64,000 nucleotides of DNA from a virus (IMGVR_UViG_3300032303_001800:1-64000), one strand, 5' to 3'; shown: positions 8,119 to 21,158, numbered from the stretch's first letter. Translations and numbers: made by a program. Notes: generated by a model not told the origin, from the sequence alone.

Positions 8119-9021
8119 CTACTCCTCTTCGCCCCACTTCTTGCTTTCGATACCTAGCACTAGGTCGCACGCTTTCTGCGCTCTGCTGGCACTCTTGACC
8201 AAGATTTTCGGGTCATTCTTGAGTACCTTTAGCCACCCTGCGATGTACGCGGTGCTGTTTTCGATAGTGCTAGGAGCGATGCCGGTTTCCGCGCATAGGA
8301 AGGTCGCTGTGAACTCCGCGACTAACTCCTCTTCGCTGTATGTCGCATCGCCAAAGTAGTGCGCTTCGACTACACCTTCGCGTGCTAGTCGGCTCTTGTG
8401 TCCGGTGCTGTGCGCTGTCTCATGGAATAGCGTTGAGTAAAACGCTTCATCGCTTGTGAAACTATCCTGCTTAGGCATCGTCACCGCATCGCTACTAGGT
8501 GAGTAGTAGGCACGCTCTCCGGCAAAGGTAAGGCTAGGCGCTCCGGTGCGGGCGTAGTAGGCATCCACGATGCTCTGCGCTCCTTCGATGATGGCAACAT
8601 CTCCGCGTACCTCTCCGCGCTCCGTTGTCGGCATCTCCTTCTCTACCCACTCCGCTTGCTCCGCGTTAAATACGCTGAAGTAACGCATTACGGCACTCTT
8701 CTTGAGTTTGCCATCCTTGTCGGTAGTCTCTAGTGGTTTCCACAACACTACCGGCGTACTCTTCTCACCCTTCTTGACCTTGCCACCCATCGCTTCTATC
8801 TGCTTGTAAGTTCCCCACCACTTGCTTGTGTATCCACCGGCTATGGTCGCAAACATTAGGAGCATCTTGTTAGTACCGTTGTATGCCTTCTTGCTACTAA
8901 GGCTAGTTGGATACACTCCCGATGTAGTCCACTCCTTACGCCACGCGGGGATGCCACCCTTCTCTAATGCTTCGATGATGCCTTGTGCCACAATCTCGTA
9001 GGGACTCTTTCTCTTTTCCAT
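8119..9021 (-). CDS. ardC: ArdC-like antirestriction ssDNA-binding protein with zincin-like domain
   Basis: N-terminal PAWRKEW...YNGTN...TYKQ...GGKVKKGEK; C-terminal HETAHSTGH, YSEEELVAE, YIAGWL. Confidence 0.92.
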   Translation of the reverse strand: MEKRKSPYEIVAQGIIEALEKGGIPAWRKEWTTSGVYPTSLSSKKAYNGTNKMLLMFATIAGGYTSKWWGTYKQIEAMGGKVKKGEKSTPVVLWKPLETTDKDGKLKKSAVMRYFSVFNAEQAEWVEKEMPTTERGEVRGDVAIIEGAQSIVDAYYARTGAPSLTFAGERAYYSPSSDAVTMPKQDSFTSDEAFYSTLFHETAHSTGHKSRLAREGVVEAHYFGDATYSEEELVAEFTATFLCAETGIAPSTIENSTAYIAGWLKVLKNDPKILVKSASRAQKACDLVLGIESKKWGEEE

Positions 9022-19463: not shown

Positions 19464-19551
19464 TGGAGGAAGTGGAGGGATTCGAACCCCCGGAGGCTCT
19501 CACCTCTCCTGTTTTCAAGACAGGTACCATAAACCGCTCGGTCACACTTCC
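19464..19551 (-). tRNA. tRNA-Ser (TGA)
   Basis: GGAAGTG/CACTTCC acceptor, CCTGT-CTTGAAA-ACAGG anticodon arm, long variable arm, GGTTCGAATC T-arm, encoded CCA. Confidence 0.93.
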
Positions 19552-19556
19552 GTTAG

Positions 19557-19623
19557 CGCAGGCGGTAGGACTTGCACCCACACCGAGACCCGAAGGTCCC
19601 TGCTACTTTTACACCACGCCTGC
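19557..19623 (-). ncRNA. tRNA-like RNA with anticodon loop replaced by a C(UUCG)G tetraloop
   Basis: Perfect 7-bp acceptor GCAGGCG/CGCCTGC, D-like arm, GGGACC-TTCG-GGTCTC hairpin, T-arm GTGGG-TGCAAGT-CCTAC; lies between two real tRNAs. Confidence 0.7.
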
Positions 19624-19624
19624 T

Positions 19625-19710
19625 TGGTTGCACGAGAGGGATTCGAACCCCCGAACTCAAAAGAGGGATGGTTTACAGCCATCAGCGTTTGACCACTTCG
19701 CTATCGTGCA
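19625..19710 (-). tRNA. tRNA-Tyr (GTA)
   Basis: TGCACGA/TCGTGCA acceptor, GATGG-CTGTAAA-CCATC anticodon arm, long variable arm, A discriminator plus CCA. Confidence 0.92.
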
Positions 19711-20909: not shown

Positions 20910-21158
20910 CTGGGTTCCTCCAGTTAGATTTAGTTGCAGGTCAAGTGTACAGCATCACATGCAACCTGTCAAGAGTTACAGCAGAATTTTCTGTAGATGA
21001 TATGTAGTATTAGTTAATATATATTATTATATATAGGGTGGTAACTGGCTGCCACCCCAAAGTTTCAAGAGAAACGCCCATTTACCCTGGTCAAATACCT
21101 GGCAACTGGCTGCCACCCATACCCTTGCTTATTGTACCACCTCTGGTACAATTAATTT

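What the first reader, a model, noticed from the sequence alone, without database searches (positions are those of the whole stretch)
19557..19623. Anticodon-less tRNA-like RNA (UUCG tetraloop) inside a tRNA operon
SEEN: between tRNA-Tyr (1 nt away) and tRNA-Ser lies a 66-nt cloverleaf with a perfect acceptor stem, D-like arm and T-arm (loop UGCAAGU). The anticodon arm is GGGACC-UUCG-GGUCUC and the 3' end reads GCUA, not NCCA. KNOWN: cUUCGg is an extra-stable tetraloop, and tRNA mimics lacking an anticodon occur in Y RNAs (YrlA) and tmRNA. INFERENCE: a deliberately stabilised decoy for anticodon nucleases, tRNA-modifying toxins or uncharged-tRNA sensors (RelA), or a processing spacer, rather than a decayed tRNA.
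Basis: partly seen in the sequence, partly recalled or inferred. Interest (0 to 1): 0.72.

Follow-up and report, generated by a model that had tools for sequence, protein, structure and literature searches.

The report
Anticodon-less tRNA look-alike in phage
Between two normal tRNA genes, this uncultured 78-kb phage carries a 67-base gene that folds like a tRNA but has its codon-reading loop shortened and closed, so it cannot decode; whether it is kept as a tRNA mimic or is a recently disabled tRNA gene is still open.

Summary
On the minus strand, 19623-19557 is a 67-nt cloverleaf lying 1 nt after tRNA-Tyr and 5 nt before tRNA-Ser. It has a 7-bp acceptor stem, a 3-bp D stem, a 5-bp T arm and GGGACC-UUCG-GGUCUC in place of the anticodon arm. 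It is tRNA-derived: Rfam tRNA gives 30.2 bits (cut-off 29) when it is searched alone.

The cUUCGg cap need not be a designed insert. Its D-loop and T-loop signature otherwise occurs only in two phage tRNA-Arg(UCG) genes with loops CUUCGGA and CUUCGAA. The cap therefore reads as C32-U33-U34-C35-G36-G37 with nucleotide 38 missing.

The closest homolog lies between Tyr and Ser in a related phage. It is a tRNA with an oversized anticodon loop. Its stems differ from the element's mainly by compensatory or wobble-preserving changes, with one pair broken. Beside it sits a second, unrelated 67-nt cloverleaf with a capped arm.

I found no other homologs, so selection after the loss of decoding is not shown. 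I favour a non-decoding tRNA-body mimic (about 0.45) over a young pseudogene (about 0.4). Decoys for anticodon nucleases or RelA are unsupported. The closest known kind is the phage tRNA-like stable RNAs, such as T5 RNA3. This scan has noted similar anticodon-less RNAs in other phages.

The parts
19557..19623 (-). Whole tRNA-shaped element, 67 nt from acceptor G1 to discriminator G
   Evidence: Sequence. Rfam tRNA 30.2 bits over model positions 1-71. ARAGORN at 90% threshold. Structure scan.
19617..19623 (-). Acceptor stem 5' strand, GCAGGCG
   Evidence: Pairs 7/7 Watson-Crick with 19558-19564. Pair 5:68 is G-C here and A-U in the homolog L040:1992-2065, a compensatory change.
19601..19613 (-). 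D arm: UGU-AAAAGUA-GCA, a 3-bp stem and a 7-nt loop without the usual GG
   Evidence: Sequence. GUAAAAG(A)UAGC is shared with the phage tRNA-Arg(UCG) genes L129 and L201. It is 3 nt shorter than theirs.
19585..19600 (-). Capped arm in the anticodon position: GGGACC-UUCG-GGUCUC, with the tetraloop at 19591-19594
   Evidence: Sequence. Hairpin alone folds at -7.8 kcal/mol. It reads as a 5-bp anticodon stem plus C32-UUCG-G37 with nt 38 absent.
19565..19581 (-). T arm: GUGGG-UGCAAGU-CCUAC
   Evidence: Sequence. The same T-loop variant occurs in real phage tRNAs (Tyr, Leu, Arg). The T stem GUGGG is shared with L040:1992-2065.
19557..19564 (-). Acceptor stem 3' strand CGCCUGC plus discriminator G. 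The trailer is CUAAC, with no encoded CCA.
   Evidence: Sequence.
19625..19710 (-). tRNA-Tyr(GTA), the upstream neighbour in the operon, 1 nt away
   Evidence: ARAGORN. Rfam 56.5 bits.
19464..19551 (-). tRNA-Ser(TGA), the downstream neighbour in the operon, 5 nt away
   Evidence: ARAGORN. Rfam 56.7 bits.

Best explanation
The element is a tRNA-derived gene that no longer decodes. It probably comes from a tRNA-Arg(UCG)-type ancestor and is orthologous or recombinationally related to an aberrant tRNA in a sister phage. It is about 5 nt shorter than the nearest normal tRNAs: 3 nt fewer in the D arm, 1 fewer in the anticodon loop and 1 fewer in the variable loop.

Shown: with nucleotide 38 gone, C32 pairs with G37 and U33-U34-C35-G36 becomes a cUUCGg cap on a 6-bp helix. 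The acceptor stem, T arm and the D/T elbow signature are intact.

Inferred: it is transcribed with tRNA-Tyr and tRNA-Ser in the minus-strand operon (ORF109, Asn, ORF62, Dps, Tyr, element, Ser, ORF78). It is cut out by RNase P and 3' trimming like its neighbours, and it receives CCA from the host enzyme. The product would be a very stable 67-70-nt tRNA-shaped RNA.

Inferred, favoured only slightly over pure decay: the phage keeps it as a non-decoding tRNA-body mimic. It would engage proteins that read the acceptor/T-arm minihelix and the elbow rather than the anticodon, such as tRNA-processing or tRNA-targeting host factors. It would itself be insensitive to anticodon-loop cleavage. That places it with the long-known but unexplained tRNA-like stable RNAs of phage tRNA clusters, such as T5 RNA3.
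For: tRNA ancestry:
- Rfam tRNA 30.2 bits.
- ARAGORN calls tRNA-Arg(tcg) once one base is added to the loop, though only at lowered threshold.
- A pattern built from its D loop and T loop, leaving the anticodon free, hits only two IMG/VR genes, both tRNA-Arg(UCG).

Homolog:
- The model built on the element scores L040:1992-2065 at 43.8 bits, the best non-self hit in 1.7 Mb.
- That gene lies between Tyr and Ser, which are themselves orthologous to the window's Tyr and Ser.

Structural constraint:
- Across the acceptor, D and T stems the two homologs differ at 7 of 32 stem nucleotides.
- Two of these changes are double compensatory (5:68 and 11:24) and only one pair is broken.
- Random substitution does this well in 0.4% of trials.

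Recurrence of the architecture:
- L040:1921-1987 is an unrelated sequence of the same 67 nt: 7-bp acceptor, D arm, no nt 26, a 5-bp/4-nt capped arm, a 3-nt spacer and a T arm.
- Its MFE is exactly this cloverleaf, and Rfam tRNA gives 31.0 bits.
- These two are the only such objects among about 390 tRNAs scanned, with 0 in shuffles.

Precedent: the T5 record annotates RNA3 as a 'putative tRNA-like RNA' 2 nt from tRNA-Asn. It folds as an acceptor stem, a 6-bp hairpin, a 3-nt spacer and a T-like arm.

The loop length is not an assembly artefact.
Against: - Only two divergent lineages exist, so there is no covariation test for the capped arm itself.
- The homolog has an open 10-nt loop, not a sealed one. 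A sealed arm is therefore not a conserved trait of this gene.
- The stem constraint may date from when both genes still decoded.
- The closest phages by Dps (75-78% identity) and terminase (61-85%) lack the element.
- This lineage's tRNA arrays hold plain debris: a truncated tRNA-Gln in L092 and a Gln 5' fragment in L040.
- There is no encoded CCA, and the discriminator differs between the homologs (G and U).
- There are no expression data, no partner protein, and no tRNA-related enzyme in the phage: PF01743 gave no hit, and the PF09511 search was uninformative because its controls failed.
- The isotype of origin is not settled by score: Leu(UAG) 40.7 bits and Arg(UCG) 38.6 and 36.8 bits with the same model.
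Confidence: 0.45

Rival explanations
1. Young pseudogene. A phage tRNA gene (Arg-UCG type) was disabled by small deletions in a fast-turnover tRNA array. It is still co-transcribed and probably processed, but it has no function of its own and is awaiting deletion.
For: tRNA sets differ in almost every relative. Remnants of tRNA genes persist in relatives. The element occurs in one phage only. The syntenic homolog carries a different lesion in the same loop. One missing nucleotide explains the 'tetraloop'.
Against: Every helix is intact, and the only lesions are length changes around the anticodon region. The same set of shortenings (the position 24-26 region, the anticodon loop, the variable loop) recurs in an unrelated gene of the sister phage. 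Changes against the homolog are compensatory or wobble-preserving. Compact phage genomes usually lose dead DNA quickly; this last point is general knowledge, not tested here.
Confidence: 0.4
2. Different origin: a class II tRNA (Leu, Tyr or Ser type) that lost its anticodon arm in one deletion of about 20 nt. The UUCG hairpin would then be the former variable arm. This concerns origin only and is compatible with either a functional mimic or a relic.
For: The pattern CTTCGG...GGTGCAAGTCC mostly hits class II phage tRNAs with CUUCGG in the variable arm, a 3-nt spacer and T loop UGCAAGU. L136 tRNA-Tyr shares GACCTTCGGGTCT with the element, and the L117 tRNA-Tyr T arm is identical at 17/17. Bacterial tRNA-Leu(UAG) genes share the acceptor stem, UGGUG and GUGUGGG and score 40.7 bits with the element's model. 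Nucleotide 26 is absent.
Against: Those hits were selected by patterns containing the shared motifs. Rfam and the element's own model align the hairpin with the anticodon arm of the syntenic class I homolog. The D-loop signature points to class I tRNA-Arg(UCG).
Confidence: 0.2
3. Still a decoding tRNA. This would be a tRNA-Arg(UCG) working with a 6-nt anticodon loop, for example kept open by m1G37, possibly with altered frame maintenance.
For: U33, UCG and G37 are in place. ARAGORN reads it as a 6-nt-loop tRNA. CGA and CGG make up 16% of Arg codons in the phage's long genes.
Against: Even with the loop restored to 7 nt, ARAGORN rejects it at default settings. The D arm and variable loop are also shortened. 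The closed form is strongly favoured in folding. From general knowledge, 6-nt anticodon loops decode poorly.
Confidence: 0.05
4. One reading: a decoy for anticodon nucleases or for RelA, or a spacer needed to process the neighbouring tRNAs.
For: A sealed loop would resist loop-cutting nucleases. Phages do counter tRNA-targeting defences with their own tRNAs (PMC10264068, PMC11464382, PMC11555353). The phage encodes an ArdC-like anti-restriction protein. Anti-restriction proteins of other types are known triggers of tRNA-cleaving systems (PMC11464382).
Against: Those published cases use decoding tRNAs with altered loops, not loop-less RNAs. Enzymes that act on the anticodon loop have little to bind here. 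RelA requires codon pairing in the A site (established knowledge). Relatives pack tRNAs 1-5 nt apart with no spacer.
Confidence: 0.07

Closest known systems
Phage T5 RNA3 ('putative tRNA-like RNA') and RNA1/RNA2 ('tRNA-like stable RNA with unknown functions'), as annotated in AY543070
   Same: It lies inside a phage tRNA cluster, abutting a tRNA gene (2 nt from tRNA-Asn). It is tRNA-sized at 73 nt. It has an acceptor-like stem, a 6-bp hairpin where the anticodon arm would be, a 3-nt spacer and a T-like arm. Its function is unknown.
   Different: There is no sequence homology: the element's model does not hit RNA3. RNA3 has no Rfam tRNA match, whereas the element reaches 30.2 bits. RNA3 has a 6-nt open loop, no D stem and an encoded ACCA.
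Canonical tRNA (Rfam RF00005), in particular phage tRNA-Arg(UCG) genes L129:3885-3959 and L201:3825-3899
   Same: It has the cloverleaf, a 7-bp acceptor stem, the T arm, D loop GUAAAAG(A)UAGC and T loop UGCAAGU. UCG sits at the anticodon position, flanked by C32 and G37.
   Different: It is 5 nt shorter, with a 6-nt self-closing loop in place of the 7-nt loop, 3 nt missing from the D arm (leaving no base at positions 25-26), a 3-nt variable loop and no CCA. The stems differ throughout. The standard finders do not call it.
L040:1992-2065 (the same sequence is in L097, L155, L160, L161 and L175), an aberrant tRNA of a related freshwater myophage
   Same: It is the best non-self match at 43.8 bits. 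The acceptor stem matches at 6/7 with a compensatory pair, the T stem 5' strand is identical (3' strand 4/5), and it has the same place between tRNA-Tyr and tRNA-Ser.
   Different: It has an open, oversized anticodon loop: 10 nt, or a 7-bp stem with CUAAUUA. Its D loop and T loop are canonical. Rfam tRNA gives 47.4 bits. Its discriminator is U.
mascRNA, bacterial YrlA/Y RNA and the tmRNA tRNA-like domain (tRNA mimics without an anticodon)
   Same: The principle is shared: an RNA with a tRNA top half whose anticodon arm is shortened or replaced, and which (from general knowledge) is processed by tRNA enzymes.
   Different: No Rfam family other than tRNA matches the element, even at E<=10. The sister element P2 reaches only 15.1 bits on mascRNA, where the cut-off is 42.5. 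Those RNAs do not sit in phage tRNA operons.

Membership tests
tRNA (Rfam RF00005) | Covariance-model score at or above the gathering cut-off of 29 bits over the full model | tested here: met
   30.2 bits over model positions 1-71, E=3.3e-5, when 19553-19626 is searched alone. This is marginal, and the element is not reported in the 401-nt or 64-kb searches because of the filters.
tRNA (Rfam RF00005) | A 7-nt anticodon loop on a 5-bp stem that presents a triplet | tested here: not met
   The loop is CUUCGG (6 nt) and closes as C:G plus UUCG. Infernal marks the arm as mispaired in the tRNA register. ARAGORN at default settings makes no call.
tRNA (Rfam RF00005) | Aminoacylation and decoding | not testable with these tools
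   This needs charging assays or tRNA sequencing.
Phage tRNA-like stable RNAs (T5 RNA1-3 type) | Encoded within a phage tRNA cluster next to tRNA genes, tRNA-sized, with tRNA-like arms but no usable anticodon loop | tested here: met
   Position and fold of the element. T5 RNA3 annotation and fold for comparison.
Phage tRNA-like stable RNAs (T5 RNA1-3 type) | Sequence or structure homology to the T5 RNAs | tested here: not met
   The element's model run over the T5 tRNA region gave only a weak hit at L200:13433-13504 and none on RNA3. This is a functional grouping, not a homology family.
Phage tRNA-like stable RNAs (T5 RNA1-3 type) | Accumulates as a stable processed RNA in infection | not testable with these tools
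   There are no expression data for this uncultured phage.
YrlA / Y RNA, tmRNA, mascRNA and other curated tRNA mimics | Match to the family's covariance model | tested here: not met
   No match for the element at E<=10.
cUUCGg extra-stable tetraloop | UUCG closed by a C-G pair on a helix | tested here: met
   C-UUCG-G sits on a 6-bp stem, and the hairpin folds at -7.8 kcal/mol. Whether it forms in vivo is unknown; methylation of G37 could prevent it.

The most novel reading that the evidence does not exclude
Phages repeatedly convert spare tRNA genes into sealed, non-decoding tRNA-body mimics. They would do this by shortening the same three places: the D-stem/position-26 junction, the anticodon loop and the variable loop. 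Here an Arg-type gene has been converted, and in the sister phage a Gln-type gene (L040:1921-1987). These RNAs would act as uncleavable competitors that soak up host tRNA-targeting defence nucleases or tRNA quality-control factors. That would give the 50-year-old 'stable RNAs' of the T4 and T5 tRNA clusters a function.
Probability: 0.2. Interest if true: 0.8.

Novelty: new variant of a known kind. Interest (0 to 1): 0.5.

Why it matters
Phage tRNA genes are now known to counter tRNA-cleaving immunity, but only as decoding tRNAs. A tRNA-shaped RNA that cannot decode and yet keeps every helix would point to a second use of the tRNA body, in binding or titrating host factors. It would also offer a handle on the unexplained tRNA-like stable RNAs of T4 and T5. 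This instance shows how such an RNA can arise: the cUUCGg cap is the UCG anticodon loop of an arginine tRNA with one base removed. If it is only a fresh pseudogene, it still documents the mode of decay in phage tRNA arrays, which is microdeletions rather than stem-breaking substitutions. It is also a caution for annotation: standard tools miss it, and Infernal's filters hide a match that lies above the cut-off.

Tried and rejected
- Exact and degenerate DNA patterns for the capped arm, the D arm and the T arm in IMG/VR found no homolog with a capped arm.
- The one metagenome scan returned only copies of the L040 homolog, bacterial tRNA-Leu and tRNA-Ser genes, and coding-sequence chance hits.
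- A BLAST-type search of the element in 25 whole records of Dps-related phages found nothing.
- blastn against 50,697 isolated phages gave only chance hits at E about 6.
- The neighbour-gene route: contigs with an identical Dps exist, but their DNA was not retrievable. The next-closest Dps contexts (75-78% identity) hold only Asn and Gln.
- All copies of the L040 block are 99.9-100% identical, so they carry no population signal.
- attP or integration-site idea: no tyrosine integrase in the phage.
- Phage-encoded CCA-adding enzyme or Rnl1: none found, but the Rnl1 search had no working control.
- Codon usage does not decide anything.
- Assembly error as the cause of the 6-nt loop is rejected, because independent contigs have the same gap length.
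- MAFFT could not align the element structurally with the sister element P2, so no joint model was built.
- Model scores do not resolve the isotype of origin.

Full report
CONTEXT

The window is 64 kb of a 78,430-bp IMG/VR virus record with direct terminal repeats. It encodes a terminase, a portal, a major head protein and a tail sheath, so it is a myovirus-type phage. Relatives come from freshwater and peat metagenomes. The whole phage has three tRNAs, all on the minus strand: Asn(GTT) at 20571-20499, Tyr(GTA) at 19710-19625 and Ser(TGA) at 19551-19464.

They lie in one minus-strand gene row: ORF 20909-20580, Asn, ORF 20489-20301, a Dps/ferritin-like gene at 20300-19845, Tyr, the element, Ser, then ORF 19427-19191. 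Promoter-like sites lie near 21055 and 20972. A terminator-like site lies at 19079-19066.

On the minus strand, 19623-19557 reads GCAGGCG UGG UGU AAAAGUA GCA GGGACC UUCG GGUCUC GGU GUGGG UGCAAGU CCUAC CGCCUGC G, followed by CUAAC and then tRNA-Ser. The features are:
- a perfect 7-bp acceptor stem
- a 3-bp D stem
- a 6-bp arm capped by UUCG
- a 3-nt spacer
- a 5-bp T stem
- discriminator G, with no CCA.

It is 67 nt long. One nt separates it from the CCA end of Tyr.

ARAGORN at default settings and Rfam at window scale do not report it. Searched alone, however, Rfam's tRNA model gives 30.2 bits over the full model, with a cut-off of 29 and E=3.3e-5. The earlier silence was therefore a filter effect. 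ARAGORN at 90% of its threshold calls it a tRNA with a 6-nt anticodon loop.

I wrote a scanner for a 7-bp acceptor stem, a T arm and a short capped arm. It found this element and one other object in 3.3 Mb of phage DNA (both strands counted) and nothing in three shuffles. The cloverleaf lies 1.1 kcal/mol above the MFE. Four other contigs encoding an identical Dps have the same 417-nt gap to the next gene, so the short loop is not an assembly slip.

WHERE THE 'TETRALOOP' COMES FROM

I searched IMG/VR with a pattern that fixes only the element's D loop (GTAAAAG, 0-2 nt, TAGC) and T loop (GGTGCAAGTCC). The anticodon region was left free. It hit exactly two genes, L129:3885-3959 and L201:3825-3899. 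Both are tRNA-Arg(UCG), with anticodon loops CUUCGGA and CUUCGAA.

Aligned to them, the element is 5 nt shorter. Its arm reads as a 5-bp anticodon stem (GGGAC/GUCUC) followed by C32-U33-U34-C35-G36-G37, with nucleotide 38 missing. C32 then pairs with G37, and UUCG becomes a cap.

Adding one base after CUUCGG makes ARAGORN call tRNA-Arg(tcg), but only at lowered threshold. The D arm (3 nt fewer) and the variable loop (3 nt long) are also shortened.

The extra-stable cap is therefore a by-product of an Arg-UCG loop losing one base. It is not evidence of design.

THE CLOSEST RELATIVE

Relatives by terminase (61-85% identity, 79 loci) carry very different tRNA sets, most often Asn plus Gln. One of them, L040, has Tyr and Ser genes clearly orthologous to the window's. 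L097, L155, L160, L161 and L175 carry the same sequence.

Between those two genes lies L040:1992-2065. ARAGORN calls it tRNA-Ile(aat) and Rfam tRNA gives 47.4 bits. Its anticodon loop is oversized: 10 nt, or a 7-bp stem with CUAAUUA.

Compared with the element:
- Acceptor stem: GCAGACG/CGUCUGC against GCAGGCG/CGCCUGC, which is one compensatory pair.
- T stem: the same 5' strand, GUGGG.
- D stem: one compensatory pair and one wobble change.

A covariance model built on the element's sealed cloverleaf scores this gene at 43.8 bits. That is the best non-self hit in all loci held.

Over the acceptor, D and T stems the two genes differ at 7 of 32 stem nucleotides, with one pair broken. Random substitutions do as well in 0.4% of trials. 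The gene lineage therefore evolved under structural constraint after the two phages split. This does not show that the constraint outlasted decoding.

A SECOND CAPPED CLOVERLEAF

Four nt downstream of that homolog lies L040:1921-1987, which I call P2. It is also 67 nt: GACAGUG UG GUGU UAGUGGGA GCAC CCGGC CUUU GCCGG AGC AUCGG UUCAAUU CCGGU CGCUGUU A. Its MFE is exactly this cloverleaf at -23.7 kcal/mol. Rfam tRNA gives 31.0 bits, with deletions at position 26, in the anticodon loop and in the variable loop.

Its loop, CUUUG, looks like the CUUUGAA loop of the lineage's tRNA-Gln genes with two bases missing. P2 is not a close sequence relative of the element, scoring 21.8 bits with the element's model.

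So two different tRNA-derived genes in sister phages share the same shortened architecture and have fully paired stems. This is my main reason not to call the element a plain wreck.

Against that, the same arrays hold plain wrecks: a truncated tRNA-Gln after Tyr in L092 and a Gln 5' fragment in L040.

AN ALTERNATIVE ORIGIN

The pattern CTTCGG...GGTGCAAGTCC mostly hits class II phage tRNAs. In them, CUUCGG caps the variable arm, a 3-nt spacer follows, and the T loop is UGCAAGU. Bacterial tRNA-Leu(UAG) genes share the element's acceptor stem and T stem and score 40.7 bits with its model.

The element could therefore be a class II tRNA that lost its anticodon arm in one deletion. I rate this lower for three reasons. 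Those hits were selected by the shared motifs. The syntenic homolog is class I. The D-loop signature is Arg(UCG)-specific. It remains open.

WHAT I COULD NOT FIND

The phage has no integrase, which argues against an attP reading. It has no CCA-adding enzyme.

HOW IT MOST LIKELY WORKS

Shown: the element is tRNA-derived, it cannot present a normal anticodon, and it is embedded in a tRNA operon with tRNA-like spacing.

Inferred from established tRNA biology: RNase P and the 3' maturation enzymes recognise the acceptor/T-arm half, which is intact here. The RNA should therefore be released and CCA-tailed like a tRNA, and it should be stable.

Inferred and unproven: the phage keeps it as a tRNA-body mimic for factors that read the acceptor stem or the elbow.

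RelA needs codon pairing. Anticodon nucleases act on the loop that is missing here. Published phage countermeasures use decoding tRNAs with altered loops (PMC10264068, PMC11464382, PMC11555353). A processing spacer is unnecessary, because relatives place tRNAs 1-5 nt apart.

COMPARISON WITH THE KNOWN

The nearest described kind is the set of tRNA-like stable RNAs in phage tRNA clusters. The T5 record annotates RNA3 as a 'putative tRNA-like RNA' 2 nt from tRNA-Asn, and RNA1 and RNA2 as 'tRNA-like stable RNA with unknown functions'. RNA3 folds as an acceptor stem, a 6-bp hairpin, a 3-nt spacer and a T-like arm with ACCA.

It shares no homology with the element and has no Rfam tRNA match. The element is closer to a real tRNA than RNA3 is. 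It matches none of the curated mimics (YrlA, tmRNA, mascRNA).

Earlier notes of this scan report anticodon-less tRNA-shaped RNAs in other phage arrays. I treat them as leads. I checked only the T5 precedent.

VERDICT

My probabilities are:
- selected non-decoding tRNA mimic: about 0.45
- young pseudogene: about 0.40

The class II origin (about 0.2) concerns origin only and overlaps these readings.

It is a new variant of a known but unexplained kind. Interest is moderate at 0.5. The anatomy and origin are clear. The recurrence in a sister phage is suggestive. Comparative depth is too thin to show function.

Noticed in passing
L040:1921-1987 (minus strand; also in L097, L155, L160, L161 and L175): A second 67-nt cloverleaf with a capped arm (CCGGC-CUUU-GCCGG) lies 4 nt after the element's homolog. 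It looks Gln-derived. Its MFE equals the cloverleaf, and Rfam tRNA gives 31.0 bits. There are weak look-alike hits to SpF41 sRNA (18.5 bits) and mascRNA (15.1 bits).
   Followed up: partly
L040:1992-2065 and L040:1824-1895 (minus strand): The related phage carries a tRNA with a 10-nt anticodon loop that can be read as a CUA (amber) anticodon plus a 3-nt insertion. It also carries a 72-nt tRNA with anticodon UCA (opal or Trp type, 36 bits). These suppressor-like tRNAs may point to stop-codon reassignment or its remnants in that phage.
   Followed up: no
window 19625-19710 compared with L040:2286-2371, L032:1003-1088 and L092:1356-1441: The window's tRNA-Tyr has a different acceptor stem (UGCACGA/UCGUGCA against CGAUGGG/CCCAUCG: 5 of 7 pairs replaced on both strands, the other 2 on one strand, and all still pair), and its anticodon stem also differs. 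The D arm, the loops and the T arm are almost identical. This suggests stem-specific pressure or recombination.
   Followed up: no
L092:1290-1355 (minus strand) and L040 just downstream of tRNA-Tyr: Truncated tRNA-Gln remnants lie directly after tRNA-Tyr: a 5' half in L092 and only the first 6 nt or so in L040. They show that tRNA debris persists in these arrays.
   Followed up: partly
L109, L114, L117, L121, L124, L125, L129, L136, L137 and L201: There is an elbow variant in real phage tRNAs (Tyr, Leu, Arg-UCG). The T loop is UGCAAGU, with G55 instead of U55. It is paired with D loops that lack the GG dinucleotide, such as AGUAGCA or AAAAGAUA. This may be a coupled change of the 18:55 contact.
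   Followed up: no
L154:5470-5642 and L156 (same sequence): An acceptor-like GCAGACG...CGTCTGC and a T arm GTGGGTTCAAGTCCTAC are separated by about 115 nt. This could be a tRNA-like RNA with a large insertion, or a permuted or tmRNA-like element. The element's model gives 27.3 bits.
   Followed up: no
window 8119-9021 (minus strand): ArdC-like anti-restriction protein: ArdcN (7e-30) plus a zincin-like metallopeptidase (3.5e-37).
   Followed up: partly
L195:1281-1355 compared with L194:1338-1412 and L196:684-758: Otherwise matching contigs differ in the anticodon of their tRNA-Gln (CTG against TTG). This is an anticodon polymorphism within one phage population.
   Followed up: no
L200:13433-13504 (phage T5, inside the annotated 'RNAX'): The element's covariance model gives a weak hit of 24.3 bits inside T5 stable RNA X. 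It may be an unannotated tRNA-like module.
   Followed up: no
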